Source: SAR324 cluster bacterium (GTDB lineage: Bacteria; SAR324; NAC60-12). Taken from it: 64,000 nucleotides of DNA. The notes under the pieces were generated by a model that saw only the letters and a list, made by a program, of their open reading frames with translations, was not told where the DNA came from and did not search any database. The stretch spans positions 3,156 to 67,155 of the forward strand of contig JAKUUI010000003.1 in assembly GCA_022448485.1 (NCBI GenBank), written 5' to 3'. The translations under genes and the position numbers were made by a program. Positions within the stretch are counted from its first letter, which is position 1, and the number at the start of each line of letters is the position of its first letter. Positions 14,209 to 33,071 of this stretch are shown here, one piece after another.

Positions 14209-14312
14209 AAATTTTAATCTGGTGTTGATGAACTAGTAAAAGGTCAAAAAACCGCACTTATTTGTTGTTCCCGCAAAAGCTGGAATGACAACTTATTACG
14301 AGCTTGTCAGTG

Positions 14313-15673: not shown

Positions 15674-15730
15674 AGGGAAGGACTGCACAAAATCCAGTTT
15701 ATTTATTGTGGTGCAGAAAAATATATTTGC

Positions 15731-15757: not shown

Positions 15758-15801
15758 GAGGGCAAGAGAACCTTTACTAGGACACTTAAGAGTTAATAAT
15801 C

Positions 15802-17571
15802 ATGGCATTGCGAGTCAACTCAAATATTGCGGCATTGAACGCGCTGAGGCACCTGCAGCAGACAGAGCAGGAATTGGGGAAAAACCTGGAGCGCTTGTCT
15901 TCCGGCCGCAAGATCAATCATGCTGCTGACGGACCAGCATCGCTTGTGATTTCTGAACAGATGAAAACACAGATTTCAGGGCTCGGACAGGCAATTCGCA
16001 ATTCCGAATCATCCATTTCAATGATTCAGACCACAGAAGGTGCATTAAATGAGGTGAGTAACATTTTAATAAATTTACGTCAACTAGCTGTGCATGCTGC
16101 TAATGAGGGTACAAATGACGAAAAAATGCTCCAGGCAGACCAAAATGAGGTTAATAACTTAATCTCTACATTGAGAAATATCGCCAAGAACACTCAGTTT
16201 GGAACAAGAAATTTGCTTGACGGAAGTAATTCAGCTACTGGTGTTGCAATTGGAAACAATCTGGAATTTGTTTTTGCATCTGACGAGGCAAAATCTTCTC
16301 CGTCAAACGGATTTAAAGTTGATATCACACAGGTAGCAACTCGTCCGATGATGATTGCTACACGCCGGTTAAGTCTTGAAGATGTTTCATCATCAGATCC
16401 GAATAATGATTTTTCTTTTGTTATAAATGAAGGGGGTCGCACTGTTTCTGTGGATCTGAAAAACAACAATGATTTACGTGAGACAATCGAAAAATTGGCT
16501 ACCTCTGCAATAAGAAACGGAACTCCGGAAGCAAAGATAAGGACTGAACGTGCCATACAACAGTTGATTGCATTCGAAATGCAGAGACTGGCAGATGAAG
16601 CAAACATGGACCTGGACATTTTTGTTTATCGTCCTGCGGACAATTTGGGACCATTTCTCGAAAACTTCGATACCTTGAATGATACATTGACAGAAATTGC
16701 GAGAACGCTAGGGGCACTAGAAGAGATCAGCGATGTTCTTGGAAGCGCTGACGAGGTGATTGTGATGAGGCACCGTCAATTCGGGAGTGAGCCAAATTTC
16801 ACTGTTTCTTCAACTTTGGAAAACTATTTTGGCGAGAATATACAAGCAAACGAAGCTGTTTTTGCTATTCCGGGACGTGATGTGGAAGGCACAATAGGCG
16901 GATACCCTGAGGTTGACGGAGGAGGTGCAGCCATGGGCAAAGGGCAGTTTCTTACTGGAGCACCCGGCGCAGAAGCAGAGGGAGTCACGGTAAAATACGG
17001 TGAGACAACGGACGATGTAATTTACGAGATTGCTAACCGTTCTGATAATCGGGTATCAGGAACGTTCAAACTGGAGCAGAACAATGATAGCTTAGTTGGT
17101 GAAGATGTGGACGGATTTGTACATGTATCACAAAATTCTCTTGCTTTTCAAATTGGCCCGAATCAAGGACAACTAAGACGAATTTCAGTTGACAGCATGA
17201 GTCCGGAACAGCTCTCAAATGGAGTAGAAAATGACAGCAATTTTCATAGTTTGGCCGAAATTGATGTGCTGGACGCAGATGCAGCTCAAGATGCTTTGCT
17301 GTTGATTGATCAAGCTATTGATGATGTTTCCACTATGCGTGGAAATCTTGGTTCATTCCAGAAAAATGCTTTGGAAGCAAATTTACACGGCTTGCGTGTC
17401 TCAAAGGAAAACTTGACTGCTTCGGAATCTCAGTTAGCAGATACCGACATGGCACAAGAGATGAGTTCATTGGTCAAAAATCAAATATTGCTTGCTTCTG
17501 GAACAGCTATGCTGGCGCAAGCCAATCAGGTCCCGCAGTCCGTTATACAGTTGCTCAATGCAAACGGCTGA
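15802..17571 (+). CDS. fliC: Flagellin (589 aa, large variable central region)
   Basis: Conserved N-terminus (MALRVNSNIAALNALRHLQQTEQELGKNLERLSSGRKINHAADGPA) and C-terminus (DTDMAQEMSSLVKNQILLASGTAMLAQANQVPQSVIQLL), with about 350 aa of non-conserved central sequence. Confidence 0.93.
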   Translation: MALRVNSNIAALNALRHLQQTEQELGKNLERLSSGRKINHAADGPASLVISEQMKTQISGLGQAIRNSESSISMIQTTEGALNEVSNILINLRQLAVHAANEGTNDEKMLQADQNEVNNLISTLRNIAKNTQFGTRNLLDGSNSATGVAIGNNLEFVFASDEAKSSPSNGFKVDITQVATRPMMIATRRLSLEDVSSSDPNNDFSFVINEGGRTVSVDLKNNNDLRETIEKLATSAIRNGTPEAKIRTERAIQQLIAFEMQRLADEANMDLDIFVYRPADNLGPFLENFDTLNDTLTEIARTLGALEEISDVLGSADEVIVMRHRQFGSEPNFTVSSTLENYFGENIQANEAVFAIPGRDVEGTIGGYPEVDGGGAAMGKGQFLTGAPGAEAEGVTVKYGETTDDVIYEIANRSDNRVSGTFKLEQNNDSLVGEDVDGFVHVSQNSLAFQIGPNQGQLRRISVDSMSPEQLSNGVENDSNFHSLAEIDVLDADAAQDALLLIDQAIDDVSTMRGNLGSFQKNALEANLHGLRVSKENLTASESQLADTDMAQEMSSLVKNQILLASGTAMLAQANQVPQSVIQLLNANG

Positions 17572-17710
17572 TTGGAATGTTTTTTGAAATGATTTCTTGT
17601 TGCCTGTTCGCTTTGAACAAGCAAAACAGAAATCTATGGCATATCAGTTAGTTGACTAAAATCAACTAGGCAAATAACTGTCCTTTTTCCCGGAGATTCA
17701 TCCGGAGTCG

Positions 17711-20700
17711 ATGGAACTGTATGCTTCAATAAACGGAACCGCCTTGGCAGAACTGAATCCGAATGCGATCACCGGCTTGGGGTCAAAGCTGAATACAAAG
17801 GAGATCATCGATCGCTTTATGGCTATCGAGCAGCGCCGGATCAAGCCTGTGGAGACTCGTAAAGAACAGAAAGTAAGTGAGCTGGAAGCTTGGGATGCTG
17901 TAAAAATGGAGTTAAAAAAGCTCCAGGGTGTAACCGAAGCACTGAACAAGTATGAAATTTGGGAGGCTCGGAAAGTAGAAACCAGTGATCCGGATGTTGT
18001 GGAACCGCAAGCGCGGAAAGATTCCGTGCCGGGGAGGCATACGATGATAGTGGAATCAGTGGCCTTGTCGCATCAAATAACTTCGCAAGGATTCGAGCGT
18101 GACGACGTCCGGATTGGTACTGGAAAGATCCAGATTCAGGTTGGAGACGATGAAGATGAGACGCCTGTCACAATCAATCTGGCTGAAGGTAAAGATACAC
18201 TAGTTGATTTGAAGCAGGCCATCAACAACTCTGACGCTGGGGTGGAGGCCTATATTGCAAAAACACATGGCGAAAACCCATTTAGGCTGCTTTTAACCAG
18301 CGACACGAAAGGTGAGCAAGGACGAATTAATATAGACGTAAATCTTAAAGGCGGAGAAGTTAGCGGGCCGAGTTATCTAAACACATTTGATAAAACTTCC
18401 ACCTGGAAGGGGCTTCAGGCTAAGGAAGCAAAAAAAGCAGCAGGTGCTGGATTTGGCGGTTCAACAAATATAGTTGAAGTGGGAGGAACGTACTCTGGAG
18501 AAGAAGACAACATCTTTACGTTTACTGTAGAGCGTGCCGGAATGATTCCTTCTGAAGCCGGTGTACTCATTGTCTGGAAGGATATAAACGGCCGAGAGGG
18601 TGAAATAGAGATCAATAAGTTTAATTATGTTCCCGGAAGCCCGCTTGACGTGACGGACGGATTAAAATTGTTGATTAGTGACGGTGAACTTGTAGGTGGT
18701 GACAACTTTACTGTTGATGTTTCTGCAGAAAAATCCGATATGCTGTGGTGGCTGAGCGACGCAGAGCGTGCACCACAAATTTCACAACCATCCGACTGGA
18801 GCAGTAAGGCGTCAGAAGGAGGTGTTCGAGTTACCGGTACATACGATGGATTAGAAGATGATACTATCATTTTTAGGGTGGAGGGCAATGGACAGGTTGG
18901 TGGCCCGAGTCCACTGAAATTGCATTACGAATATTCTGAAACTGGAGAAAAAGGTTCTGTCAATATTGGACACCCTTATCTTGGAGAAGTTGGTAAAGAA
19001 GGACCATTTGATCAGGCTACTGCTTTTGACTCTGAAGATGGTGAAGAACTCTTCGATTTGGAGTTCAGTAAGAAAGGCCGTCGTGACCCAAAGCGTCTGC
19101 CTCTGGGACATGGATTATTTGTAGAAGTGAATCCCAGTGTTTTAAGGGACGGGGATAGTACGGATGTGGATGTAATTGCTCCAACTTCAGAAGATATGTG
19201 GTGGAGCGACGATGAACATCGTGGTGTTTCTAATAAAATTGATGTTCAAGCAAAGTGGATGACCTACGATGAGTATGAAGGAATTGATGAAGACGTAACG
19301 AGAAGTAAACTCGACGTTTCTGCTGGAGTCTGGGGGGCGTCAGGAGGTCTTAGCAATGCTCCCATAGAAATATCCGGTACATTTGAACCGGATATCGCTA
19401 AAACATATACTTTTAGAGTTGAGAAGAGGGGTACTGTCGGTATCACACGTGGCCTACAATTGAGATGGGAAGATACGTTTGGCGGCAACGGTTCTGTAGA
19501 AGTGGGTGAGGGCTATATTCCTGGGACCCCAATATTATTTGATGAGGGATTAAGACTGGCCCTTGGAAAAGGTGGTTTATATCCAGATGATTATTTTACT
19601 ATCTCAACAGAGACTTCAACTGTCAGACTGGCTCAAGATTTAGTCTTACGCCTTGGAGCCACCAGAAGTGGAGAAGGCCTGGAGGTAAGGCGTTCGGAAA
19701 ATGTGGCAAATGATGTGATCCCTGGACTCGATCTGGAGTTTTTTTCGTCCAGTGATGAACCCGTAACTGTATCTGTATTGGGTGACACAGAGGTAGCTAA
19801 AGAGCGCATTCATGATTTTGTAGATGCTTACAATACATTTCAGGCAACTGCAAAAGAAGTGTCAAAGTACGACAAGTCGACAAACACGGCTGCGCCTTTG
19901 TTAAGTGACAGGAATCTGGCTCAGATGGTCAATGAAATTGCGAACACAACAATTGCAACCGTAAGTGGGTTGCCGCAGTCGACTAATATGCTTTTTTCTA
20001 TTGGCCTGAAAATCGATGATAGAGGCCAGATGTCTATTGAAGAGAAAAAATTAAACGAAAAGATAGTTGATGCTTTTTCTGATGTTGCTAATTTATTCCG
20101 GAGTCATGGAAAAACAGATAATCCCGGAGTAAGTTTTCTGGGAATGACTGAAAAAACTAGGGTCAATCCCAGCGGTTACCAAGTGGACGTCTCGAATGCT
20201 GCTGAACGCGGATTCTATTTGGGAACTCCACTCCCCGGAATTATAAGAGTTGATGATACAAACAATGTTTTAATTATTAAAAATAACGGCAGGGTATCTG
20301 ATCCGATTGAATTGCGCAAGGACAACTATACTCTCGGCAGTCTGGCCAAAACCATCCAGAACCGTTTGATGGAAGACAAAGTTTTGGGACGCCGTAGATT
20401 ACAGGTTCGTGAAGAAGAAGGAAGGCTGATGATAATTTCGGGGACTTATGGAAGCAGCAGTACAATTGAGGTGGAGCCCGGCCCAGATAAGGAACTCAGC
20501 GGTTTGGGGCTGACAGATGGTGTCAGCACTCCGGGAGAGGATGTTGCAGGATCAATCGGGAATGTGGAAGCAACAGGCAGAGGACAATTGCTTATGGGAG
20601 CGGAAGATTCCAATGCTGACGGTTTGAGATTGTTCGTGACACTTAGCGAAGACGACCTGGTTAAGGAACAAGAGGCTACTGTGAATATTTCCAAAGGTGT

Positions 20701-20959
20701 AGCTGTTAAATTAGGTCAGAAACTTGATAAATTGAATGATCCTCTGGATGGTAATGTCAAGCGGGCTACAGATGATATAACTGGACAAATGAGTAGTTTT
20801 GAGGAGCAAATAAGCCGCTTAAACGAACGGGCCGATACTAAGCGTTCAAGGTTGCAGAGTAAATTTGCAAAACTGGACAGCACTATGGGAAGATTAAAAT
20901 CCCAACAAAACTATATCAACCAGCAACTCTCCGCAATGAGCGGAGCTAATAAGTCCTAA
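17711..20959 (+). CDS. fliD: Flagellar filament cap protein FliD (HAP2), unusually long (1082 aa)
   Basis: FliD-type N-terminus (ITGLGSKLNTKEIIDRFMAIEQRRIKPVETRKEQKVSELEAW) and C-terminus (RLNERADTKRSRLQSKFAKLDSTMGRLKSQQNYINQQL). Gene order is flagellin-fliD-fliS. The middle of the protein contains three tandem repeats. Confidence 0.88.
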   Translation: MELYASINGTALAELNPNAITGLGSKLNTKEIIDRFMAIEQRRIKPVETRKEQKVSELEAWDAVKMELKKLQGVTEALNKYEIWEARKVETSDPDVVEPQARKDSVPGRHTMIVESVALSHQITSQGFERDDVRIGTGKIQIQVGDDEDETPVTINLAEGKDTLVDLKQAINNSDAGVEAYIAKTHGENPFRLLLTSDTKGEQGRINIDVNLKGGEVSGPSYLNTFDKTSTWKGLQAKEAKKAAGAGFGGSTNIVEVGGTYSGEEDNIFTFTVERAGMIPSEAGVLIVWKDINGREGEIEINKFNYVPGSPLDVTDGLKLLISDGELVGGDNFTVDVSAEKSDMLWWLSDAERAPQISQPSDWSSKASEGGVRVTGTYDGLEDDTIIFRVEGNGQVGGPSPLKLHYEYSETGEKGSVNIGHPYLGEVGKEGPFDQATAFDSEDGEELFDLEFSKKGRRDPKRLPLGHGLFVEVNPSVLRDGDSTDVDVIAPTSEDMWWSDDEHRGVSNKIDVQAKWMTYDEYEGIDEDVTRSKLDVSAGVWGASGGLSNAPIEISGTFEPDIAKTYTFRVEKRGTVGITRGLQLRWEDTFGGNGSVEVGEGYIPGTPILFDEGLRLALGKGGLYPDDYFTISTETSTVRLAQDLVLRLGATRSGEGLEVRRSENVANDVIPGLDLEFFSSSDEPVTVSVLGDTEVAKERIHDFVDAYNTFQATAKEVSKYDKSTNTAAPLLSDRNLAQMVNEIANTTIATVSGLPQSTNMLFSIGLKIDDRGQMSIEEKKLNEKIVDAFSDVANLFRSHGKTDNPGVSFLGMTEKTRVNPSGYQVDVSNAAERGFYLGTPLPGIIRVDDTNNVLIIKNNGRVSDPIELRKDNYTLGSLAKTIQNRLMEDKVLGRRRLQVREEEGRLMIISGTYGSSSTIEVEPGPDKELSGLGLTDGVSTPGEDVAGSIGNVEATGRGQLLMGAEDSNADGLRLFVTLSEDDLVKEQEATVNISKGVAVKLGQKLDKLNDPLDGNVKRATDDITGQMSSFEEQISRLNERADTKRSRLQSKFAKLDSTMGRLKSQQNYINQQLSAMSGANKS

Positions 20960-20981
20960 AACTAATAATAACGGAGATGCG

Positions 20982-21449
20982 ATGAGTACCTATGGTAACT
21001 ACCAGAATGCCTATAAAAAGGCCTCTGTCAACACACTTGATCAAAATAAACTGATCATTATGCTCTATGATGGAGCCATAAAGAATGCCAGTTTTGCTGT
21101 TGAGCACATGAAATCAGAGGAAATAGAGAAGGTCCATGATTGTTTAATAAAAACTAAGAACATTGTGACCGAACTAATGGCAACCCTGAATATGGATCAT
21201 GGAGGTGATATCGCAAAAAATCTTCAGTCACTCTATAGCTACATGTTTAGCCAGCTGATTGAGGCAAACATGGAAAAAAAGCCTGAACCAGTTATTGTCG
21301 TAATAGATTTACTCAAGGAGTTGCGGGCGGCCTGGGTGCAAATTAATTCAAAAAAGAAACCAGGTGCAACAAAACAAAATGCTACTACACAAGGCATGAT
21401 GCAAAATAATCAGGAGAAAGCCGAGAAGCATATTAATGTGACGGGATAA
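20982..21449 (+). CDS. fliS: Flagellar export chaperone FliS
   Basis: 155 aa. YQNAYKKASVNTLDQNKLIIMLYDGAIK...LQSLYSYMFSQLIEAN is the FliS pattern. It lies directly after fliD. Confidence 0.88.
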   Translation: MSTYGNYQNAYKKASVNTLDQNKLIIMLYDGAIKNASFAVEHMKSEEIEKVHDCLIKTKNIVTELMATLNMDHGGDIAKNLQSLYSYMFSQLIEANMEKKPEPVIVVIDLLKELRAAWVQINSKKKPGATKQNATTQGMMQNNQEKAEKHINVTG

Positions 21450-21642
21450 ACTTTGGGAAAATTGACTTGGTTGCCAGATAAAAAGGTATCATTTACACAA
21501 GCTAGGGATGTCAGGAGCTCGCATTACGCATTAAATGAAATATGAGATTTCTGCTCTCTGGTCATTTCGGCGATAAACTTTGCAGGAATGACAACGAAGA
21601 GTAGTGTTAGACTTTTTTCAAGACTCTCAATTAGAGAGGAGA

Positions 21643-21815
21643 AAAATAGAATAAATTCAAGTTAAAGCCAAAGGATAGCAAACTGCTATTTTTTGGCTTT
21701 GTTGTCTAAAGTATTGATTCAGCAGGAATAACCCGGCTGCAAACTGCACATGTGGGCCGCAACTGTTTGAGTTGCAGGTGTTTCTGAGGCATGTACTGTT
21801 TGTCAGCTGGGTTTT
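21643..21815 (+). repeat. Repeat family R1, copy 1 (two-hairpin element)
   Basis: By eye about 80-85% identical to 22951..23120. Hairpin 1 is 21664-21700 (AAAGCCAAAGGATAGCA/TGCTATTTTTTGGCTTT). Hairpin 2 is 21731-21812: outer stem CCCGGCTG/CAGCTGGG, middle stem GCACATG/CATGTAC, inner stem GCAACT/AGTTGC. Confidence 0.85.
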
Positions 21816-21935
21816 ACCTCAGAAGAAAAAACGAACTTTTGGTTTGAGATTGTTCTAACATAGTGTGACTGGAATTAATGTAGCAGCAAATTAGGCCGTG
21901 AAAATACTGCCTTAATTTAAAAAAATTATAAGAGA

Positions 21936-22562
21936 ATGGGTAATTGGCATGAGGCTGAGGTATCTTTGCGCCAGGCGGACTCTATAATTGCCGGAATAAT
22001 TGAACATACCGGGCCTTGTGAATTGATAAAGCATGAAGGAGGATTTGCCGGGTTGGCAAGTTCCATCATTGGACAGCAACTCTCAAATCAAGTTGCAAAA
22101 ATAATCCGGGCAAGGTTCCGGAAGCTCTTTGAAAATGAACTGCCTGATCCCAGGTATTTACTGAAACTAGATGATTCTGTCTTGAGAAAGGCAGGATTGT
22201 CTTTCCAGAAAATCAAATACCTGCGTGGTTTGGCGCAATGGTTGGATAGTGGTGAGCTGGATTTTTCTGCATTGGCAAAGATGGATGACGAAATTGCAAT
22301 TCAGCAACTTGTCCTAGTGAAAGGCATTGGACGCTGGACTGCTGAAATGTATTTAATGTTCAGCTTGAATCGTCCGGATCTGTTGCCTTTGGATGATGCG
22401 GCTCTTGAGGCCGCATTGAAACGGCTCTATGATCTTCCGGAAAAAGGTTGGAAAGAGCTGGCTGTTTCGATTGCAGAAAAATGGAGACCGTGGCGGACTG
22501 TAGCTTGCTGGTATCTCTACCGATATCACAAATTGGTGAAAAACGGAGAGGCTCCGTTCTGA
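21936..22562 (+). CDS. DNA-3-methyladenine glycosylase II-like (HhH-GPD family, AlkA-like)
   Basis: 208 aa. HhH motif LVKGIGRWTAEMYLMF followed by the Asp-containing LLPLDD, and a C-terminal WRPWRTVACWYLY. Confidence 0.78.
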   Translation: MGNWHEAEVSLRQADSIIAGIIEHTGPCELIKHEGGFAGLASSIIGQQLSNQVAKIIRARFRKLFENELPDPRYLLKLDDSVLRKAGLSFQKIKYLRGLAQWLDSGELDFSALAKMDDEIAIQQLVLVKGIGRWTAEMYLMFSLNRPDLLPLDDAALEAALKRLYDLPEKGWKELAVSIAEKWRPWRTVACWYLYRYHKLVKNGEAPF

Positions 22563-22574
22563 AATCTCCATCTT

Positions 22575-22945
22575 GTTGAAATTAGAGGGCTACTTAATTG
22601 GTGGGAACCTCTGTTGATCTTTGAAAATTGAATAATCAACTAATCCTCATGCGGGAATCCCTGTCAAATGGGATAAACGCCAGCTGCTTAGCAAACCAGG
22701 CCGGTGGGCTATATTTTTCTGAATATAACTGTTCGGATCAATGTGTCTTCACTACATCCTGAAAATCTACTGCAGCAGGAGTGTTGTTTTTCATACTGCG
22801 GCCTGTGATTATGCGGTTAGTTGCTACATGACGGAAGTAGAAAACGAACATTTTACTCTGAAGCAAAATGCCAGATGATGGCCCTTTGCTTGGATAGTCA
22901 GGTGAAGAATTGGATCTTGAATAGAAAACCAATCACTGAAAAGAC
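22575..22945 (+). repeat. Repeat family R2, copy A: conserved intergenic module plus a decayed, truncated 5' fragment of a DUF1835 gene
   Basis: Aligns with 24040..24420. Shared blocks are GTTGAAATTAGA, TTAATTG, TCTGTTG.TCTT.GAAAATT, GTCAA, CTATATTTT and TTCGGAT.AATGT. From ATG 22741 the sequence is homologous to the DUF1835 N-terminus (SV...D.A; LHDG), with at least one frameshift. Homology stops where R1 copy 2 begins. Confidence 0.75.
22688..22715 (+). promoter_or_regulatory. Putative sigma-70-type promoter inside R2 copy A
   Basis: TTAGCA-N16-TATATT. The equivalent position in R2 copy B carries TTGAAT-N18-TATATT. Confidence 0.3.
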
Positions 22946-22950
22946 CCTAC

Positions 22951-23120
22951 AAATAGAAACAAAGCTAAAGCCAAAGTATAGCTCACTGCTATACTTTGGC
23001 TTTGTTGTTTAACAAATTGGATCAAGCCAGAATTACCCGGCTGCAAGCCGCACATGTTGGCCGCAACTGTTTTGAGTTGCAGCTTTTTCTGAGGCATGTG
23101 CTGTTTGTCAGCCGGGTATT
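22951..23120 (+). repeat. Repeat family R1, copy 2
   Basis: Hairpin 1 is 22967-23003 (AAAGCCAAAGTATAGC/GCTATACTTTGGCTTT, perfectly paired). Hairpin 2 is 23035-23117 (CCCGGCTG/CAGCCGGG, GCACATG/CATGTGC, GCAACT/AGTTGC). The stems are better paired than in copy 1. Confidence 0.85.
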
Positions 23121-23520
23121 ATCCGGCAGATAAAATTGTCAGGGAGAAATATGTCTGCTCGGCAATGGATTGAAATAGATAGTTATATAGAAAATTGTTG
23201 AGATGCCCTGCAATACTATTTAAAGCTGTTTTTAGGTGTTAACTGCTAAGAACTGAGCCTACCAACAATTGGGAAAGTTAGAAGCATAGAGCCTGGTTGT
23301 CCAAGTGCCTGACTCATGCTGGTATGGTTTTGGGTGCTTGACCTGACCAACTTCATTTTGCTATAAAAGCAAATAGATTTACGGCTTGATGTGAGATTTA
23401 TGGTTTGCACCGTCGATGGAATTAGTACTTTATCTTGGATTGTTGTAAGTATAAAAGTAGGTTGATTTAGGCCTTGTGAACTGAGCCTGTAAAAACCGTA
23501 ATTTAATTGGAGCGTGATTT

Positions 23521-24008
23521 ATGAAAATATACGTAGGAACATTGTCTCCAGATGACGGCCAAGAGTGGAAAAATTTATATCGTGGATATGCCGAGTTTCA
23601 CTATGATCCCATGAATAACGAAATTCTCGACACTGTCTGGAATTAGATTTTTGATGAAGACGAAGCATTCTATGATTTGGTAGCTAATAATGAAGAGAAG
23701 CGTCCTGTCGGTCTCATGCACTTCCGGGAAATGGCCTCACCTTTAAGAGGCAAAAATGTAGGTTTTTTAGATGACCTTTTTGTAGTCCCTCGGAGTCACG
23801 TGGAACAGGAGTAGAAGGCGAAATGTTTCAAAAATTAACTGCGAAATCCACCGACAATGGATGGCCTTTTGTGCGCTAGATAAAGGCGGAAGACAACTAT
23901 CGTGGCCGAGGTGTTTATGATCGAATCGCTGAAAATACAAAATAGGTGACATACCAACATGAATGTTTGATCTCAAAATCTTTGTTGCTGTCACAAAACG
24001 TCCGATGA
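23521..24008 (+). pseudogene. GNAT-family N-acetyltransferase, disrupted by three in-frame TAG codons and one frameshift
   Basis: My translation is MKIYVGTLSPDDGQEWKNLYRGYAEFHYDPMNNEILDTVWN*IFDEDEAFYDLVANNEEKRPVGLMHFREMASPLRGKNVGFLDDLFVVP, then a frame change near 23790, then ESRGTGVEGEMFQKLTAKSTDNGWPFVR*IKAEDNYRGRGVYDRIAENTK*VTYQHE... The TAGs are at 23644, 23877 and 23943. GNAT motif A (RGTGVG-like) is present. Confidence 0.7.
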
Positions 24009-24039
24009 AGACAGAGTGGTGCTGCCTAAATAATATACT

Positions 24040-24420
24040 GTTGAAATTAGAACCTTTTTTAATTGAATGAGGTTCTGTTGCTCTTGGAAAATTTAATCAG
24101 GTACATCTCCGCTCGTGGAGAACTCCGTCAAGAACGGCCTTCACTGAATATTGAATGAACAAAGCGGGTTGGACTATATTTTGTCTATAAGATATTCTTT
24201 CGGATAAATGTTTTTCAACACTGGTGAAATCAGTTTTGAGGAGAGTGTCTTGCTGTATATTGTGAGTGGAGATTGCGCCATCGAAGCATTAAGAGATTCC
24301 GAAATTGAAGGGGATTTTCCTTCCTAGATGGTTGTACTTCATGATGGACCCGTGCCTGAAGGACTGCGTCTTGAGGAACTCTCTAATATTCGAGCTAAGT
24401 TCATTGCAGAATGTGATTGG
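24040..24420 (+). repeat. Repeat family R2, copy B (intergenic module plus the 5' end of the full-length DUF1835 gene)
   Basis: See copy A. Hairpin AGAACCT/AGGTTCT is at 24049-24076 and the palindrome GGAGAACTCC is at 24117-24126. The distance from GTTGAA to the ATG is 168 nt, against 166 nt in copy A. Confidence 0.75.
24151..24180 (+). promoter_or_regulatory. Putative sigma-70-type promoter inside R2 copy B (upstream of the DUF1835 gene)
   Basis: TTGAAT-N18-TATATT, with the -10 element ending 28 nt before ATG 24208. Confidence 0.3.
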
Positions 24421-25242
24421 GATTCTCTTGAAAATGCTAAGGACTCTTTTCGGAAAATGGACCTTGTTTTCCATAATTGTCACAAATACGACGAAGTGGT
24501 ACTTTGGAACAGCTTTGAATTGTTCGATCAGCTTCATCTGCTGCAGTTGTTAGATTGTTTTGCCTACAAGCAGGAAGTCTCTCAGCGCTTGAGTATTATT
24601 TTTATTGATGAGTACCTGTGGCAGGCTACTTCTGAGTCCCAGCTGGAGAGGCTTGGAAAGAGAGAACCAGTTTCTGAAAAACAACTCGTTCTTGGACAAC
24701 TTAGCTGGACTGCTTTTACTGCTCCAACACCTGAATTGATGCTTGAACTGATGCAGGAATGCACCTCGGTTTTACCATTTTTGCAGAACGCACTGTTCCG
24801 CCTTTTTGAGGAATTTCCCGCAGAGTGGAGCGGTCTGCCCCAGACAGAGCATTGCATTTTAGAGCAAGTAAGAGGTGGAATCTCCTAGCTCGTCAGTTTG
24901 TTTTCTGCAGTTCAAGCAGAGGAACCGGCCCGTTTTATGGGGGATTGGTCTTTTTGGAAACGCGTGCGCAGGCTCGTAGAATCTCCTCGGCCATTATTGG
25001 AATTGGAGGGCGATGTCCATTTTTATGAACCTCCAAAGACTCCTTTTCCTGATCCGGTTTTCGGGAAATTTGATGCTCAGGTGACAGGTTTAGGAATTGA
25101 GATCCTGGATAATAATGTGGATTGGCTCAGACAAAATCCACATGATTATTGGATTGGTGGGGTCCATCTTCATCCCGGTAATGATTGGAGATGGAATGCG
25201 GAGCGTATACAATTTTTAATAAAAGAACGGAGTTCTATGTGA
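24208..25242 (+). pseudogene. DUF1835/DUF3658-type protein gene: one reading frame interrupted by two in-frame TAG codons
   Basis: ATG 24208 gives MFFNTGEISFEESVLLYIVSGDCAIEALRDSEIEGDFPS, then TAG (24325-24327). Track ORF 24328..24888 follows, ending in TAG (24886-24888). Track ORF 24898..25242 continues in the same frame. Family hallmarks as I remember them are VVLWNSFELFDQLHLLQLLDCFA, LPFLQNALFRLFEEFP and FMGDWSFW. Confidence 0.65.
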
Positions 25243-25269: not shown

Positions 25270-25794
25270 ATGCACATTCAAGTCAGGTATAGAATGAATG
25301 TACGAAATAGTGAACCGGAAACAATTTGGCATCTTGAAATGCTGCATCCGGAGGAATTATGCGCAAGAGTGCTGCCTCCGGAAACTCAATTGGTGAAGCA
25401 AGAAATTCCTTTGCCAGATTTGAACCGCTTTTTTTACCTGGAAGTGGGCAAGTTGTGGCAATGGACGGATCGTCTCTTGTGGACTGAAGAACAGTGGCGG
25501 AACTGGGTAGAGCGTGAAGCTCTTCAGACCTGGATGTTGCTTTTTCATGGCACTCCCGCCGGTTATTTTGAATTGAATTCCCTTGATGGGGCAGTTGAAA
25601 TTGCTTATTTTGGCTTACTGCCATTGTTTATTGGTAAAGGGTTAGGTGGCGGATTGTTGTCCGCAGCCGTTGAGAAAGCATGGGGGATGAACGCAAAGCG
25701 GGTTTGGGTACATACCTGCAGCCTCGATCATCCTTATGCCTTGAAGAATTATCAAGCTCGAGGCTTTCAAATTTATCGTGAAAGCCCTGCTTAA
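25270..25794 (+). CDS. GNAT-family acetyltransferase (intact)
   Basis: 174 aa with motif A region LLPLFIGKGLGGGLLSAAVEKAW. It starts 27 nt after the DUF1835 stop. The start could also be ATG 25294. Confidence 0.75.
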   Translation: MHIQVRYRMNVRNSEPETIWHLEMLHPEELCARVLPPETQLVKQEIPLPDLNRFFYLEVGKLWQWTDRLLWTEEQWRNWVEREALQTWMLLFHGTPAGYFELNSLDGAVEIAYFGLLPLFIGKGLGGGLLSAAVEKAWGMNAKRVWVHTCSLDHPYALKNYQARGFQIYRESPA

Positions 25795-25812
25795 TAATGC
25801 TAAGCCGCCGTT

Positions 25813-26229
25813 TTAAGGCCATCGTGTGGGTGTTTGACCGCACACCGGAATTGAAATGGAATGGAAGCTCTTTGAAAACTTAATCTGGCGAAACCTCCCA
25901 CGGGGGATCTTCCCCTGTTTGCTGAACCATCGGCCATAGTATTTTCCTGTAAAGGAGGATAGGGTGAATACCTTTGTTTCGACTCTATAAACAACGGTGC
26001 AATCCACACTGTGACGATCTCCGCCCGGGAAGTAATCCGTGGCTCTCTGTTTCAGCTGTGGTGTTGGGGATAACTCTGAAAACTTTCCAGTTGACTCTGG
26101 AGTTTTCTCATTAGAGACTCCCTGCGGGTAGTATTCGTGAAATGGTAGTGGATTCCCTGGAGATGTCCCGTGTGAACTGGGATGTTGTATGGTGAGTTGT
26201 TCACTGTGCCGGGAGCCATCCCACCATTG
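25813..26229 (-). pseudogene. Start-less 139-codon open frame, probably an N-terminally truncated gene remnant
   Basis: The minus-strand frame is open from 26229 to the TAA at 25815-25813. It has no ATG, GTG or TTG before the GTG the track uses (25813..26007). The sequence ...PFHEYYPQGVSNEKTPESTGKF...DYFPGGDRHSVDCTVVYRVETKVFTLSSFTGKYYGRWFSKQGKIPRG... matches no family I recognise. Confidence 0.3.
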
Positions 26230-26399
26230 TTATGGCTGAATGTTCCATATTGGGACTTATTGTTTCGAGAAGTGCATTCATTCGTAAAGAAGTCCTGTTT
26301 TCTAACTGCGGGGTGTTGTCTTGGCAGATAGCTATGTTTGGATAATATAATTGTGGTGGGTGTGTTTCCATTTTATAATAAAAATATTATTTTTATGAC

Positions 26400-26565
26400 G
26401 AATTGAATTGACATGAATCCGTAATGTTTGGAGAAATCCGTAGTTTTTTTGTGGCGAATTAGATTGCCAGAAATCCGTAATGTTTGGAGAAGTCCGTAGT
26501 TTTTTTGTGGCGAATTGAATCGGCGGAAATCCGTATTGATAGGGAGAAGTCCGTAGTTTTTGTGT
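26400..26565. repeat. Tandem direct repeat, 3 x ~56 bp, each unit holding two TCCGTA-core sub-repeats
   Basis: Unit 1 is 26400-26455, unit 2 is 26456-26511 and unit 3 runs from 26512 to about 26565. The consensus is GAATTGAAT....(A)AATCCGTAATGTTTGGAGAA(A/G)TCCGTAGTTTTTTTGTGGC. An almost pure A/T tract (about 26370-26399) lies directly upstream. Confidence 0.85.
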
Positions 26566-26640
26566 TAAGGACGAGAGATTGTCATTTTTTCTCTGTGCCT
26601 GAATATTTGAGATACTCTTTTCCAGTTACTGTGAGGAAAT

Positions 26641-29061: not shown

Positions 29062-30024
29062 ATGTCATTAAAAATCAATCATAATATTGAGTCCATGGTT
29101 GCACATCGCAACCTGTTAATGAACGACCGTGCGCTTTCAAAGTCACTTGAAAGACTGGCTTCGGGACAGAAAGTCAACCGGGCAGCCGATGATCCGGCAG
29201 CTTTGGTGATTTCTGAACATATGCGTGCCCAGGTTAGCGGGATGCAACAGGCAATCAAGAATAACGAAATTGCCATTTCACTCGTTCAAACTGCTGAAGG
29301 CTCTATGAATGAAATCTCGAATATGCTGGTTGGCCTTCGTCAGCGAGCAATTTCTGCAGCAAACGTTGGTGCTAGTGACCAGTCAATGATTGAAGCCAAT
29401 CAGGCTGAAATTGAAAATGCGCTTGCATCAATTGATCGTCTTGTGACTACTACACAGTTCGGACATTACAAACTTCTGGACGGAACAAATGCTTCGCGAA
29501 CCGAGATCAAATTTAGGACTGATTCGGATGGAGAATTTGTGTTAGACGGCGACGATAACAAGATTATAGAGTCAAAATCAACCGTAGAAGGACTCCGTTT
29601 TCATGTTGGACCTAATGCAGATCACCAGGCTTCAGTTTCTATTCGAAACATGCACACAAATCAGCTTGGTCGGGTTGCAGAGGGTCAAAACAAAAGCAGC
29701 TTTGCATCGCTTGCTGATATTGATGTGCGCAATGAGCAAGGTGCTCAGGATGCACTTGCTATAATTGATCAGGCGCTTACAGAGGTTGCTACAGTTCGCG
29801 GAGAAGTAGGTGCTTTCCAGAGTCAAACACTGGAAACCAATCTCACCAGCTTGCAGATTGCATCAGAAAATATGACTGCTGCTGAATCCACTCTTCGTGA
29901 CACTGATATGGCTCAGGAACTGGCGACATTTACTCGTAACCAGATCATGAGTCAATCAGCAACTGCGCAGTTGGCTCAGGCCAATGCACTGCCGCAAAAC
30001 GTATTGCGGTTATTAAACAGCTAG
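29062..30024 (+). CDS. Flagellin (320 aa, short central region)
   Basis: N-terminus MSLKINHNIESMVAHRNLLMNDRALSKSLERLASGQKVNRAADDPAALVISE and C-terminus DTDMAQELATFTRNQIMSQSATAQLAQANALPQNVLRLLNS. A strong SD (AAGGAG) is 6 nt upstream, and the stop codon is TAG. Confidence 0.93.
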   Translation: MSLKINHNIESMVAHRNLLMNDRALSKSLERLASGQKVNRAADDPAALVISEHMRAQVSGMQQAIKNNEIAISLVQTAEGSMNEISNMLVGLRQRAISAANVGASDQSMIEANQAEIENALASIDRLVTTTQFGHYKLLDGTNASRTEIKFRTDSDGEFVLDGDDNKIIESKSTVEGLRFHVGPNADHQASVSIRNMHTNQLGRVAEGQNKSSFASLADIDVRNEQGAQDALAIIDQALTEVATVRGEVGAFQSQTLETNLTSLQIASENMTAAESTLRDTDMAQELATFTRNQIMSQSATAQLAQANALPQNVLRLLNS

Positions 30025-30216: not shown

Positions 30217-31683
30217 ATGCCGTTGGGGATGAAACACAACATCGTATCTATCAACGCGTTAAATCACCTGGCAGAAGCACAAAATGAACTGTACGGCTCA
30301 TTGAGACGCTTATCTTCAGGACAAAGGATCAACAGTGGAGCAGATGACCCGGCTGGTCTGGTTATTTCTGAGGGTCTTCGTGCTCAGATTGCCAGTGTAC
30401 AGCAAGCTCTGCAAAATACTGAGTTTTCCCTGTCTCTGGTCCAGACCGCTGAAGGTGCTTTGGCAGAAGTGAACAATTTGCTGATTGAAATGCGTCAATT
30501 AGCGACAACTGCTGCAAATGAGGGTGCAACCGATTATAGTGCAATGTTGGCATTGCAGTTTCAGATTCGCACAGCAATCGATGGAATTGACCGTGTTTCA
30601 CGGTTTACTCGCTTCGGCAATACAAATCTGCTGGACGGTAGTCATGGAACTACAGGAATGGGAGGAAATGAAGAACTTGTTTTTCTTAAAGCATCATCGA
30701 AAACAATCTCATCTCCGCTCAGTGGCTATGAAGTGGATATTACCGAATTGCCTAAGAGGGCAAATCTGACAGAAGACCTTGATGATGATGGTGCATCCGG
30801 ATTACAAATCACATTAGAAGAAGAAGACGGAGCTATAATCAGAGTCAGAAATCCAGAAGTGGGGACAGCAGAGGGTTTTGCAAACCGCCTGCAAGAAGCT
30901 GCTTTTGAAGCAAACATGAACTTGGACATACTCTTTGATGTAGATGAAGAAGAGCTTACAATTGAGCATCGGGAATATGGACTTGCCAAAGGATTCACTG
31001 TCACGGGTAACAAGGATGGAGTAATTGTGGAAGATGCTTTTGAACCCAAATTATTTTTGGGAAGGGATATAGAGGGAACCATAAATGATGAGCCTGCTGA
31101 AGGTGATGGATTGGTCCTTACAGGAGATTTAAATAACGAGAATACAAGTGGTTTGAGTGTAGCTTTTTTAGGCAACGATACCGGTAATGCCGGATCCGTA
31201 ACTGTTGCGCAAAATGCTCTTAAATTTCAAATAGGACCAAGTGCGGATGAAAATATTCTGATCGCACTGAATAGCACTCATTCTACAGTCCTGGGAAGAG
31301 GTGTGGATAATAAGAGTGGTTTCGACAATTTGTCCCAAATCAGGCTCACATCTGCTCAAGAGGCCATCGACGCAATTCGTCTTGTAGATGAGGCTCTTGA
31401 TCAATTATTATCGATGCGTAGCCAACTCGGTTCTGTACAAAAACACACGCTTGAAACAAATATTTCAGTGCTCCAGTCCACTGCAGAAAATTTAACTGCA
31501 GCTGAATCCAGCGTCCGGGACACAGATATGGCAATGGAGATGGTCAATTTTACAAAAAACCAAATCATAACAGAAAGTGCCGCCGCGGCGGTCGCTCAGG
31601 CCAATCAGACGGCTGCTCGTGTTTTGAGGATCTTGTTTAACAATAATGCGAGTTATTACTGGTCATCTTCCACAAACCATTGA
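30217..31683 (+). CDS. Flagellin (488 aa) with an atypical C-terminal extension
   Basis: N-terminus NALNHLAEAQNELYGSLRRLSSGQRINSGADDPAGLVISE and C-terminus DTDMAMEMVNFTKNQIITESAAAAVAQANQTAARVLRIL, followed by 12 extra residues (FNNNASYYWSSSTNH). Confidence 0.9.
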   Translation: MPLGMKHNIVSINALNHLAEAQNELYGSLRRLSSGQRINSGADDPAGLVISEGLRAQIASVQQALQNTEFSLSLVQTAEGALAEVNNLLIEMRQLATTAANEGATDYSAMLALQFQIRTAIDGIDRVSRFTRFGNTNLLDGSHGTTGMGGNEELVFLKASSKTISSPLSGYEVDITELPKRANLTEDLDDDGASGLQITLEEEDGAIIRVRNPEVGTAEGFANRLQEAAFEANMNLDILFDVDEEELTIEHREYGLAKGFTVTGNKDGVIVEDAFEPKLFLGRDIEGTINDEPAEGDGLVLTGDLNNENTSGLSVAFLGNDTGNAGSVTVAQNALKFQIGPSADENILIALNSTHSTVLGRGVDNKSGFDNLSQIRLTSAQEAIDAIRLVDEALDQLLSMRSQLGSVQKHTLETNISVLQSTAENLTAAESSVRDTDMAMEMVNFTKNQIITESAAAAVAQANQTAARVLRILFNNNASYYWSSSTNH

Positions 31684-31697
31684 TCGTTGCTCAAAAA

Positions 31698-33071
31698 ATG
31701 CGCCTTGACGATACAATTGCTGCGATAGCAACTCCCTTGCAGCCATCCGGACTAGGAGTAATCAGAATAAGCGGACCACAGGCAGTTCCAGTGGTGGAAC
31801 CGTTGTTCAAAGGTGGTGGGAAAGAACTGCAAAAGACAGAAACACACAAACTTATTCATGGCTGGATACATGATGACGGGAAACTACTTGACCAAGTTTT
31901 AGTAGTCGTCATGCGTGCTCCGCATTCTTTCACCACAGAGGATGTGGTTGAGATTCAGTGTCACGGCAGTCCATTTATTTTGCGCACAATTCTGACTTTG
32001 GTTTTGCGTCAGGGAGCGCGCTTGGCAAAGGCTGGAGAGTTCACTCAAAGAGCTTTTTTGCATGGACGTTTAGACTTGACACAAGTGGAAGCAGTTTCAG
32101 ATTTGATTCATGCCAGTTCTGAAATTGGGGCTAAACTGGCCGCACAACAACTTTGTGGAAAACTTTTTCACGCCATTAATCAGGTAAAAAAACAAGTGGT
32201 GTCCATAGCTTCACTGGTTGAAGCCAACATAGAGTTTCCCGAAGAAGATACTGAATTTACGCATCGAGATGATTGTCTGCAGCGACTGAATCAGGCCAGT
32301 GCTGATTTGGAAAATTTACTGTCTCATGCAGACCGTGGACGACAGATACGTGATGGTTTTAGTGTAGCACTGATTGGCCGGCCGAATGTCGGCAAATCTT
32401 CACTGCTCAATACCTTGCTCCGTGAACAAAGAGCAATCGTGACCACCATTCCAGGAACAACTCGTGATTCAATTGAGGAATCAGTACAAATTCAGGGATT
32501 GGCTTTTCGATTAACTGACACCGCCGGCATTAGAAAAACAGAAGATCTGATTGAAACAGAAGGTATCCGGCGTACACAAAATGTCCGGGACAATGCCGAC
32601 TTGGTCCTGCTTATTCTGGATGCCAGCGAAAAACTTATGGACGAAGACCTTAGTTTAATCAGTGAAATCGAACAGGAACGAACAATAGTTGTCCTAAATA
32701 AAAAGGATCGAATGACTGGAAAGAGGCCGATTTGGCACAAAGAAATATCCGGAATGGATGCTGTTTTGATTTCAGCAAAAACCGAAGATGGTTGTGATGA
32801 GTTGGAATCACGCTTATTTGCAAAGGCCGCTCTGGGCGGTTTACCGCAGGAAGATCAAACCTGGATCACAAACCGCAGGCAGCAACATGCTGCCAAACAA
32901 GCACTGTCTGCTTTGTTCTCAGCACGGGAAGGTTTGATACAGTCAAATGGGGAAGAGTTTCTTGCAGTAGATTTACGCTCCTGCTTAAACGCTTTGGGTG
33001 AAATTGTCGGCGAAACTACGACTGATGATTTGCTTGGACAGATTTTTTCGGAGTTTTGTATTGGGAAATAA
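31698..33071 (+). CDS. mnmE: tRNA modification GTPase MnmE (TrmE)
   Basis: The track ORF starts at TTG 31680, but ATG 31698 gives MRLDDTIAAIATP, the usual MnmE N-terminus. It has G-domain motifs GRPNVGKSSLLN and DTAGIR and the canonical C-terminal CIGK. Confidence 0.92.
   Translation: MRLDDTIAAIATPLQPSGLGVIRISGPQAVPVVEPLFKGGGKELQKTETHKLIHGWIHDDGKLLDQVLVVVMRAPHSFTTEDVVEIQCHGSPFILRTILTLVLRQGARLAKAGEFTQRAFLHGRLDLTQVEAVSDLIHASSEIGAKLAAQQLCGKLFHAINQVKKQVVSIASLVEANIEFPEEDTEFTHRDDCLQRLNQASADLENLLSHADRGRQIRDGFSVALIGRPNVGKSSLLNTLLREQRAIVTTIPGTTRDSIEESVQIQGLAFRLTDTAGIRKTEDLIETEGIRRTQNVRDNADLVLLILDASEKLMDEDLSLISEIEQERTIVVLNKKDRMTGKRPIWHKEISGMDAVLISAKTEDGCDELESRLFAKAALGGLPQEDQTWITNRRQQHAAKQALSALFSAREGLIQSNGEEFLAVDLRSCLNALGEIVGETTTDDLLGQIFSEFCIGK

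What the first reader, a model, noticed from the sequence alone, without database searches (positions are those of the whole stretch)
23521..25242. Five premature stops in two adjacent genes, and every one is TAG
The GNAT gene has in-frame TAGs at 23644, 23877 and 23943, plus a 2-nt frame change near 23790. The DUF1835 gene has in-frame TAGs at 24325 and 24886 and is otherwise one continuous 345-codon frame. Neither gene contains an in-frame TAA or TGA. From my memory of these families, at least FVR*I (usually RW.T in this GNAT group) and S*MVVLHDGPVP (often W..VLH.GPVP) sit where homologues have Trp. That would mean TGG to TAG, a G-to-A change in a GG context, which is the signature left by CC-specific cytosine deaminases. 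Other explanations are origin from a TAG-recoded mobile element or phage, local suppression, or ordinary decay that gave five ambers by chance. TAG is a genuine stop in conserved neighbours (flagellin 2 at 30022-30024, and 42911-42913), so genome-wide reassignment is unlikely.
Basis: partly seen in the sequence, partly recalled or inferred. Interest (0 to 1): 0.65.

Follow-up and report, generated by a model that had tools for sequence, protein, structure and literature searches.

The report
Two decaying pseudogenes with amber stops
Two neighbouring accessory genes in a marine SAR324 bacterium are ordinary dead genes, and the fact that all five of their premature stops read TAG in this strain is a coincidence: sister strains carry TAA and TGA stops in the same two genes.

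Summary
The GNAT gene (23521-23970) has in-frame TAGs at 23644, 23877 and 23943, a 2-nt insertion at 23791-23792 and a further 1-nt insertion at 23958. The DUF1835-like gene (24250-25242) has TAGs at 24325 and 24886. Alignment to intact syntenic orthologues in other SAR324 genomes gives the ancestral codons as TGG, TGG, TGG, TGG and CAG.

The deaminase and recoding readings fail.
- **Mutation spectrum:** G>A is only 18-19% of lineage-specific changes, all 12 substitution types occur, and GG/CC context is not significantly enriched.
- **Neutral decay:** polymorphisms fall equally on the three codon positions, and frameshifts differ between strains.
- **Lost TAA:** codon 23602 is TAA in four relatives (the outgroup has CAA) and has secondarily become TAT in the window. 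The ancestor therefore already carried a TAA.
- **Wider count:** across the clade I count 25 independent nonsense events, TAG 11, TAA 7 and TGA 7. This fits the neutral expectation of 0.39/0.33/0.28.
- **TAG as a stop:** TAG ends 4 of 40 intact ORFs in the window.

Five of five TAG has a neutral probability of about 0.3-1.3%, post hoc. Verdict: ordinary pseudogene decay, of low interest.

The parts
23521..23970 (+). GNAT acetyltransferase pseudogene (psiGNAT1). It carries three TGG>TAG stops, two frameshifting insertions and one former TAA codon.
   Evidence: Translation. The repaired translation scores 28.7 bits on PF00583, above the 20.7 cut-off. Intact 148-aa orthologues are P0122/L012 and the L013 gene at 9280-9726.
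23602..23604 (+). Codon 28 of psiGNAT1. It is TAT in the window but TAA in L003, L009, L010 and L027, and CAA in the intact outgroups. This is a former ochre stop that has mutated back to a sense codon.
23644..23646 (+). TAG, ancestral TGG (Trp, codon 42). Shared by all close relatives and by L027.
23791..23792 (+). 2-nt insertion that shifts the GNAT reading frame. L027 shares it. L010 has 3 nt at this site.
23877..23879 (+). TAG, ancestral TGG (Trp, codon 119).
23943..23945 (+). TAG, ancestral TGG (Trp, codon 141).
23958..23958 (+). 1-nt insertion that puts the native TGA stop (23968-23970) out of frame.
24250..25242 (+). DUF1835-like pseudogene (psiDUF1835), 330 codons from a TTG start aligned with the orthologues' GTG start. 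It has two TAG stops and no frameshift in the window copy.
   Evidence: The intact orthologue P0001 scores 20.3 bits on PF08874 against a 21.1 cut-off. More distant homologues carry PF08874.
24325..24327 (+). TAG, ancestral TGG (Trp, codon 26). This one is young and polymorphic: L009 keeps TGG, L028 has TTG and L027 has a 5-nt deletion here.
24886..24888 (+). TAG, ancestral CAG (Gln, codon 213; CAA in L015). Shared with L027. It is probably the original inactivating lesion of this gene.
25270..25794 (+). Intact second GNAT gene immediately downstream. It serves as a contrast: conserved, with no polymorphism in 8 contigs.

Best explanation
These are two ordinary unitary pseudogenes in the chromosome of an uncultured marine SAR324 bacterium. 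They lie in the flagellar locus, which sits between rnpA-yidD-yidC and mnmE. A dispensable GNAT acetyltransferase gene and, later, its DUF1835-like neighbour were inactivated by point mutations and have since drifted neutrally.

The only transitions that can create a stop codon are GC>AT changes: TGG>TAG or TGA, CAG>TAG, CAA>TAA and CGA>TGA. Both genes are rich in Trp and Gln codons. That is why the stops arose at TGG (four times) and CAG (once).

The all-TAG pattern is an accident of this strain. The common ancestor of the pseudogene clade also had a TAA at codon 28 of the GNAT gene, which has since mutated to TAT in the window. Sister strains have acquired TGA and TAA stops in the same genes.

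What is shown: the ancestral codons, the shared and private lesions, the neutral substitution pattern and the mix of stop types in relatives. What is inferred: the order of events, and that no special mutational process was involved.
For: 1. **Intact orthologues in synteny.** L013 has HhH-GPD, GNAT (148 aa), a DUF1835-like gene (330 aa) and GNAT (167 aa) in the same order. L018 is the same. L015 has an intact DUF1835-like gene but no first GNAT.
2. **Ancestral codons.** They are TGG, TGG, TGG, TGG and CAG.
3. **Other kinds of lesion.** There is a 2-nt and a 1-nt insertion in the GNAT gene. Relatives carry private frameshifts: L001 has deletions at 23752 and 24838, L004 has three insertions and one deletion, and L009 has a 2-nt insertion.
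4. **Neutral evolution.**
   - The window lineage of psiDUF1835 has 124 changes against 60 on the intact L013 lineage.
   - SNPs by codon position are 10:9:8 and 7:5:6 within the population, and 38:27:35 against L027.
   - Pseudogene divergence from L027 is 10.2%, against 6-8% at third positions of flanking genes.
5. **Broad mutation spectrum.** All 12 substitution types occur, G>A is 18-19%, and there is no significant GG or CC context preference.
6. **Mixed stop types in relatives.** Examples are TAA at GNAT codon 28 (L003, L009, L010, L027), TGA at codons 16 and 114, TGA at DUF codon 208 (L002, L009), and TAA/TAG/TGA in the independently decayed L012/L020 copy. In total I count 25 independent events: TAG 11, TAA 7, TGA 7 (tally made by hand). 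The neutral fractions of about 0.39/0.33/0.28 predict about 9.8, 8.3 and 7.0.
7. **TAG terminates real genes.** It ends 4 of 40 long ORFs in the window.
8. **No machinery for the rival readings in the window.** No tRNA, no Rfam match, and no deaminase or pyl domain in the 44 long ORFs scanned against Pfam.
Against: - Five of five TAG in the window copy has a neutral probability of only 0.003-0.013.
- Three of the six Trp codons of the GNAT gene became TAG and none became TGA on the stem lineage. My hand calculation gives about 0.03 for three or more of six middle G's changing at the observed G>A rate of 14/109, but about 0.19 if all 12 G's of the Trp codons are considered.
- Recent G>A polymorphisms show a weak excess in GG context: 11 of 27 against 25% background, p=0.075.
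- Within-population diversity in the pseudogenes (about 2-2.7%) is several-fold higher than at third codon positions of the flanking genes (0.3-0.5%). I could not explain this.
- Only the 64-kb window and about 30 short loci were examined, not the whole genome.
Confidence: 0.9

Rival explanations
1. A burst of cytosine deamination with CC (GG on the opposite strand) preference hit this locus and converted TGG to TAG. The agent would be an APOBEC3G-like or interbacterial deaminase toxin.
For: - Four of five stops are TGG>TAG, that is G>A with a 3' G. The fifth is C>T preceded by C (tccCag>tccTag).
- No Trp codon became TGA in the window copy.
- Recent G>A changes show a weak GG excess, 11/27 against 25% background, p=0.075.
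- G>A outnumbers C>T on the + strand in psiDUF1835, 23 against 13.
Against: - G>A is only 23/124 and 14/78 of the changes in the two pseudogenes, and 28/159 of recent polymorphisms. All 12 substitution types are present, for example A>T 16 and T>C 19.
- On the stem lineage GG context is 8/23 against a 28% background, p=0.49.
- C>T preceded by C is 4/13 and 3/16.
- The five TAGs arose at different times. The one at 24325 is polymorphic (L009 has TGG), while the others are shared with L027 at 10% neutral divergence.
- Relatives show TGG>TGA three times (GNAT codons 16 and 114, DUF codon 193).
- The G>A versus C>T asymmetry largely reflects the G excess of this strand: 272 G against 173 C in the orthologue.
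- No deaminase domain in the window.
- The best-known bacterial toxin of this kind, DddA, targets 5'-TC rather than CC (abstract of PMC10442228, listed).
Confidence: 0.03
2. TAG is read through or recoded in these genes (suppressor tRNA, pyrrolysine, or origin from a TAG-recoded phage or mobile element), so the genes are still functional.
For: - All premature stops in the window copy are TAG.
- TAG is the rarest terminator in the window, 4 of 40 ORFs.
- An automatic gene caller translated this same pseudogene with TAG=Gln on two short metagenome contigs (P0121 and P0124).
Against: - The GNAT gene also has two frameshifts.
- Relatives carry additional frameshifts and TAA/TGA stops.
- SNPs are spread evenly over codon positions, and the substitution rate is twice that of the intact orthologue.
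- The repaired DUF1835 translation no longer matches its Pfam family at all.
- TAG ends conserved genes, including a flagellin.
- The 'Q' residues in P0121 and P0124 are TAG in the DNA, so they are an artefact of the gene caller's choice of code.
- The locus is chromosomal and syntenic across SAR324 MAGs.
- No tRNA in the window.
Confidence: 0.02
3. The stops are sequencing or assembly errors in one assembly.
For: Metagenome-derived sequence. Some related contigs have low coverage: 4.8x and 8.3x are given in the contig names.
Against: The three GNAT TAGs and the TAG at 24886 are present in every independent assembly from different samples that covers them: six contigs (L001-L003, L009-L011) for 23644 and 23877, five for 24886 (L001-L004, L009), and also the 91%-identical relative L027. 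The TAG at 24325 is in three further contigs (L001-L003) but not in L009.
Confidence: 0.01

Closest known systems
Ordinary unitary pseudogenes of free-living bacteria, decaying under GC>AT-biased mutation
   Same: - Intact syntenic orthologues in relatives.
- A mixture of nonsense and frameshift lesions.
- Substitutions spread evenly over codon positions.
- A substitution rate twice that of the intact copy.
- Stops created mainly by GC>AT transitions at TGG, CAG and CAA.
- Independent loss of the same dispensable gene in a second lineage (L012/L020).

   Different: Nothing substantive. The only oddity is that the five stops surviving in this strain are all TAG, with a post-hoc neutral probability of about 1%.
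APOBEC3G-type G>A hypermutation (GG>AG, which turns Trp TGG into TAG), as described for HIV-1 (for example PMC7308096, title and abstract listed; otherwise my own knowledge)
   Same: Four Trp codons became amber through G>A at the first G of a GG pair.
   Different: - In hypermutated sequences G>A dominates the spectrum and is strand-coordinated. Here G>A is 18-19% of changes and context enrichment is not significant.
- The events are spread over time.
- TGG>TGA also occurs in relatives.

Interbacterial DNA deaminase toxin DddA, which mutagenises surviving target cells (PMC7901873; 5'-TC motif per PMC10442228; both from abstracts listed)
   Same: It is a known bacterial source of C>T/G>A mutations, and so a conceivable mechanism.
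   Different: - The target context is TC, not CC.
- No C>T/G>A-dominated spectrum is seen here.
- No deaminase gene is present in the window.

TAG-recoded phage genomes (TAG read as Gln) and pyrrolysine-decoding organisms (my own knowledge)
   Same: In-frame TAG codons. A gene caller did apply a TAG=Gln code to short contigs carrying this pseudogene.
   Different: - TAG terminates conserved genes here.
- The TAG sites are conserved Trp positions, not Gln or Pyl positions.
- Frameshifts and neutral evolution show the genes are dead.
- The context is chromosomal and syntenic.

Membership tests
Ordinary decaying pseudogene | An intact orthologue exists at the same chromosomal position in related genomes. 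| tested here: met
   L013 and L018 carry intact GNAT (148 aa) and DUF1835-like (330 aa) genes between HhH-GPD and the second GNAT.
Ordinary decaying pseudogene | Several disabling lesions of different kinds (nonsense and frameshift), with private ones differing between strains. | tested here: met
   Five TAGs plus a 2-nt and a 1-nt insertion in the window. Relatives carry additional indels and TAA/TGA stops.
Ordinary decaying pseudogene | No coding constraint: substitutions fall equally on codon positions and the rate is higher than in the intact copy. | tested here: met
   Codon-position counts are 10:9:8, 7:5:6 and 38:27:35. There are 124 changes against 60 on the intact lineage.
Ordinary decaying pseudogene | Stop-codon types follow the neutral expectation once all independent events are counted. 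| tested here: met
   25 events: TAG 11, TAA 7, TGA 7 (hand tally). The expected fractions are about 0.39/0.33/0.28. An earlier subset of 11 events gave chi-square p=0.56.
CC/GG-context cytosine-deaminase hypermutation footprint | G>A (or C>T) dominates the substitution spectrum. | tested here: not met
   G>A is 23/124, 14/78 and 28/159. All 12 substitution types are present.
CC/GG-context cytosine-deaminase hypermutation footprint | Mutated G is followed by G (mutated C is preceded by C) far more often than the background. | tested here: not met
   8/23 against 28% background, p=0.49. 11/27 against 25% background, p=0.075. C>T after C is 4/13 and 3/16.
CC/GG-context cytosine-deaminase hypermutation footprint | The mutations arose together in one event. 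| tested here: not met
   The TAG at 24325 is polymorphic within the population (L009 has TGG). The others predate the split from L027.
TAG recoding or suppression (recoded phage or element, pyrrolysine, suppressor tRNA) | TAG is not used as a terminator in the same genome or element. | tested here: not met
   4 of 40 long ORFs in the window end in TAG.
TAG recoding or suppression (recoded phage or element, pyrrolysine, suppressor tRNA) | The ORFs are otherwise intact and under purifying selection. | tested here: not met
   Frameshifts are present and substitutions are spread evenly over codon positions.
TAG recoding or suppression (recoded phage or element, pyrrolysine, suppressor tRNA) | A tRNA with a CUA anticodon, or pylTSBCD genes, is present. 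| not testable with these tools
   The window has no tRNA gene and no pyl-like Pfam domain. The rest of the genome was not available.
GNAT acetyltransferase (Pfam PF00583) | The profile score is above the curated cut-off. | tested here: met
   The repaired window translation scores 28.7 bits and the orthologue P0122 scores 34.3 bits, against a cut-off of 20.7. The unrepaired translation gave no hit.
DUF1835 (Pfam PF08874) | The profile score is above the curated cut-off. | tested here: inconclusive
   The intact orthologue P0001 scores 20.3 bits against a cut-off of 21.1, and P0003 scores 14.5. The repaired window copy gives no hit. More distant homologues carry a precomputed PF08874 hit or the name 'DUF1835 domain-containing protein'.

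The most novel reading that the evidence does not exclude
SAR324 may have a mild mutational bias or hot-spot process in unconstrained DNA: G>A preferentially at GG or GA, recurrent hits in G runs, and within-population diversity in these pseudogenes several-fold higher than at neighbouring synonymous sites. Such a process would make amber the favoured first stop at Trp codons. The evidence does not exclude this, but it does not require it either.
Probability: 0.05. Interest if true: 0.35.

Novelty: already known. Interest (0 to 1): 0.1.

Why it matters
It matters little for biology. Two dispensable accessory genes next to the flagellar genes of a marine SAR324 lineage are being lost. One of them was lost independently in a second lineage.

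There are two practical lessons.
1. An all-amber pattern in a single sequence can look like recoding or a deaminase footprint. It should be tested against close relatives and against the full substitution spectrum before it is believed.
2. The pattern did fool an automatic gene caller. Public protein catalogues contain translations of this pseudogene with TAG read as Gln (P0121 and P0124).

Tried and rejected
- **Pfam on raw translations.** With X at the stops, neither pseudogene gave a hit.
- **Q residues in P0121 and P0124.** I first read the Q at the TAG positions as evidence for real CAG codons in close relatives. The DNA shows TAG, so these proteins are products of a TAG=Gln translation.
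- **Polarising GNAT changes with a third lineage.** The L015 lineage lacks this gene, so only unpolarised counts were possible for the GNAT pseudogene.
- **More pseudogenes in the flanks.** I looked in the flanking intergenic stretches 22563-23520 and 25795-26640. tblastx against the orthologous loci scores similarly in all frames, so they look non-coding and give no extra stop counts.
- **Literature on SAR324 and stop-codon recoding.** The search found nothing relevant.
- **Rfam and tRNA scans of the window.** Both were empty.
- **Pfam scan of the 44 long ORFs.** It found only housekeeping and metabolic families, with no deaminase or pyl genes.
- **Mobile-element or phage origin.** I rejected it because the gene order is conserved in several SAR324 MAGs.
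Full report
**1. What is in the sequence**

- The GNAT reading frame runs in frame 1 to about 23790 and then in frame 3. Its TAGs are at 23644, 23877 and 23943.
- The second gene is one continuous frame, with TAGs at 24325 and 24886.
- No TAA or TGA interrupts either frame in the window copy.
- Of 40 long ORFs in the window, 22 end in TGA, 14 in TAA and 4 in TAG. The four include the flagellin at 29062-30024 and the ORF at 42374-42913. TAG is therefore a working terminator here.

**2. Organism and context**

Pfam assignments give this gene order:
- glutamate synthase, then yidC, yidD and rnpA on the minus strand;
- flagellin, fliD, fliS and an HhH-GPD glycosylase;
- the two broken genes;
- an intact GNAT (25270-25794), an M24 peptidase, two more flagellins and mnmE;
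- housekeeping genes after that.

Homologues and syntenic contigs identify the organism as an uncultured marine SAR324 bacterium. The same gene order occurs in SAR324 MAGs GCA_014382365.1 and GCA_016784405.1, and in SAR324-CTD7B and FRAM18_bin343. The locus is therefore chromosomal, not a mobile element or prophage. The window has no tRNA, no Rfam match, and no deaminase or pyl domain.

**3. Ancestral codons**

Protein searches found intact homologues.
- Intact GNAT orthologues (P0122 at 72% identity, and P0123) have Trp at all three TAG positions: WSWIF, VRWIT and TKWVTY.
- Intact DUF1835-like orthologues (P0001-P0004) have Trp at the first TAG position and Gln or Arg at the second.

Nucleotide alignments with the syntenic intact genes of L013, L012, L018 and L015 give TGG>TAG at 23644, 23877, 23943 and 24325, and CAG>TAG at 24886.

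The same alignments show three more things:
- a 2-nt insertion at 23791-23792;
- a 1-nt insertion at 23958 that displaces the native TGA stop;
- a start codon for the DUF1835-like gene at TTG 24250, where the orthologues have GTG.

The repaired GNAT translation passes the PF00583 threshold. The DUF1835 label is borderline: orthologue P0001 scores 20.3 bits against a cut-off of 21.1, and the repaired window copy gives no hit.

**4. A trap: 'Q' at the TAG sites**

Two database proteins 93% identical to the GNAT pseudogene (P0121 and P0124) show Gln at every TAG position. Their DNA has TAG there, and the look-up reports that the gene does not translate to the query under the standard code. They are the same pseudogene translated by a gene caller that read TAG as Gln on short contigs. 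They are not evidence for CAG codons or for recoding.

**5. Relatives show decay, and show other stop types**

Eleven independent metagenome contigs, 97-99% identical to the window, cover parts of the region.
- Every contig that covers them has the three GNAT TAGs and the TAG at 24886.
- The TAG at 24325 is polymorphic: L009 keeps TGG.
- The contigs differ by private frameshifts: L001 has deletions at 23752 and 24838, L004 has three insertions and one deletion, L005 has a deletion at 25069, and L009 has a 2-nt insertion.
- They also differ by private stops: TGG>TGA at GNAT codon 114 in L009, and AGA>TGA at DUF codon 208 in L002 and L009.

GNAT codon 28 (23602-23604) is the key site. It is TAA in L003, L009 and L010, TAT in the window, and CAA in the outgroups.

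A more distant relative, L027, is 91% identical in nucleotides. It shares with the window:
- the three GNAT TAGs;
- the TAA at codon 28;
- both GNAT insertions;
- the TAG at 24886.

The ancestor of the pseudogene clade therefore carried one TAA and four TAGs. The window lost the TAA by a later A>T change and gained the TAG at 24325 recently. L027 has many further lesions of all kinds.

Independently, the DUF1835-like gene is also dead in the L012/L020 lineage, with CAA>TAA, CAG>TAG, TGC>TGA and TAT>TAA. Counting each independent nonsense event once across the clade gives TAG 11, TAA 7 and TGA 7 (my tally).

**6. How surprising is five of five?**

The expected share of TAG among new stops is 0.32-0.42, so P(five of five) is 0.003-0.013.
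- The clade-wide tally of 11:7:7 matches expected fractions of about 0.39/0.33/0.28. An earlier 11-event subset gave chi-square p=0.56.
- For the ancestral state (four TAG, one TAA), my hand calculation gives P of about 0.08 for four or more of five.

**7. The deaminase test**

I polarised changes with two outgroups, L013 and L015. The window lineage of psiDUF1835 has 124 changes.

| Type | Count | Type | Count |
|---|---|---|---|
| G>A | 23 | T>A | 9 |
| T>C | 19 | A>C | 8 |
| A>T | 16 | C>G | 5 |
| A>G | 14 | G>C | 3 |
| C>T | 13 | C>A | 2 |
| G>T | 10 | T>G | 2 |

- Of the 23 G>A changes, 8 have a 3' G, against a background of 76/272 (p=0.49).
- C>T preceded by C is 4 of 13.
- The GNAT pseudogene differs from its orthologues at 78 sites, of which 14 are G>A. 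Three of those 14 are the TAGs.
- Among 159 derived polymorphisms in the unconstrained region, G>A is 28. Eleven of 27 are in GG context against 25% background (p=0.075), and C>T after C is 3 of 16.

This is a broad, mildly GC>AT-biased spectrum (76 GC>AT against 48 AT>GC), not hypermutation. The TAGs also arose at different times (section 5).

**8. Neutrality**

- The window lineage of psiDUF1835 changed twice as fast as the intact L013 lineage, 124 changes against 60.
- SNPs fall evenly on codon positions.
- Divergence from L027 is 10.2% in both pseudogenes and in the intergenic DNA, against 6-8% at third positions and 2-4% at first and second positions of HhH-GPD and the M24 peptidase.

These genes are not being read through to make functional protein.

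**9. Conclusion**

The inference about ancestral Trp codons is right for four of five stops. The all-amber pattern needs no special mechanism. Transitions can only make stops from TGG, CAG, CAA and CGA, and these genes are rich in Trp (6 and 11-12 codons) and Gln. One former TAA has been erased, and relatives show TAA and TGA.

I put ordinary pseudogene decay at about 0.9 confidence, a context-specific deaminase at about 0.03, read-through or recoding at about 0.02, and sequencing error at about 0.01.

**10. One loose end**

Among the near-identical strains, the pseudogenes differ by 1.8-2.7%. The flanking genes differ by 0.2-0.4%, and by only 0.3-0.5% at third positions. This ratio is much larger than the one seen at the L027 depth. 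L001 has a cluster of 12 private, mostly GC>AT, changes at 24761-24968, and two sites in or near a G run were hit repeatedly. I could not explain this. It is recorded in the notebook and under the items noticed in passing.

Noticed in passing
L010:170-568 and L011:1132-1449 (equivalent to window 23521-23970): Public protein-catalogue entries P0121 and P0124 are translations of this pseudogene with TAG read as Gln. The DNA has TAG, and the look-up flags 'translates_to_query: no'. A gene caller evidently chose a TAG=Gln code for short contigs dominated by the amber-interrupted pseudogene. This is a source of false recoding signals.
   Followed up: yes
window 23521-25242 and 25795-26625, compared with 15802-22562 and 25270-25794: Among 98-99% identical strains, SNP density is 1.8-3.3% in the pseudogenes and the downstream intergenic stretch. 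It is 0.2-0.4% in the flanking genes (third positions 0.3-0.5%) and zero in the intact GNAT across 8 contigs. The last figure is partly ascertainment, because those contigs were fetched by exact GNAT2 protein identity. The ratio is far larger than at the deeper L027 comparison (10.2% against 6-8%). L001 has 12 private, mostly GC>AT, changes in 24761-24968. Positions 24907 and 24940 were hit recurrently, the latter in the G run at 24939-24943.
   Followed up: partly
L027 and L026 (GTDB contigs CAZOYP010000119.1 and CAZOYP010000125.1): These contigs are labelled 'uncultured Nitrospinaceae bacterium' but are 90-91% identical in nucleotides to this SAR324 locus over 3.4-4.1 kb. This is probably mis-binning or a taxonomic mislabel of that MAG.
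   Followed up: no
window 21659-21831 and 22962-23135: A direct repeat of about 175 bp at 83% identity, lying in the intergenic regions upstream of HhH-GPD and upstream of the GNAT pseudogene. It is conserved in L013, L015 and L018-L021. Two related contigs (L014, L016) carry a tandem duplication of fliD-fliS-HhH-GPD, which may be related or may be an assembly artefact.
   Followed up: no
window 26390-26565: A tandem repeat with a 56-nt unit, 3.1 copies, 85% matches, upstream of the M24 peptidase gene. In L017 the corresponding array appears longer, matching at several places spaced about 57 nt apart. No Rfam match.
   Followed up: no
L012:791-1291 and L020 at about 2970-3990 (orthologous to window 24250-25242); L015:9344-10001: The DUF1835-like gene is independently pseudogenised in a second SAR324 lineage (L012, and L020 = FRAM18_bin343), with TAA, TAG and TGA stops, while that lineage's first GNAT is intact. 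In the L015 lineage the first GNAT is absent and the DUF1835-like gene is intact. The two genes are therefore lost independently of each other.
   Followed up: partly
window at about 14000-16000: Cumulative GC skew reaches its minimum here, between the rnpA-yidD-yidC genes on the minus strand and the flagellin cluster on the plus strand, with mnmE at 31680-33071. The gene content and the skew switch suggest the chromosomal replication origin region, with a flagellar gene block sitting between yidC and mnmE.
   Followed up: no
window at about 56000-58150: A low-GC stretch (0.33-0.35 against about 0.43 elsewhere). No ORF of 100 aa or more lies between 56929 and 58154.
   Followed up: no
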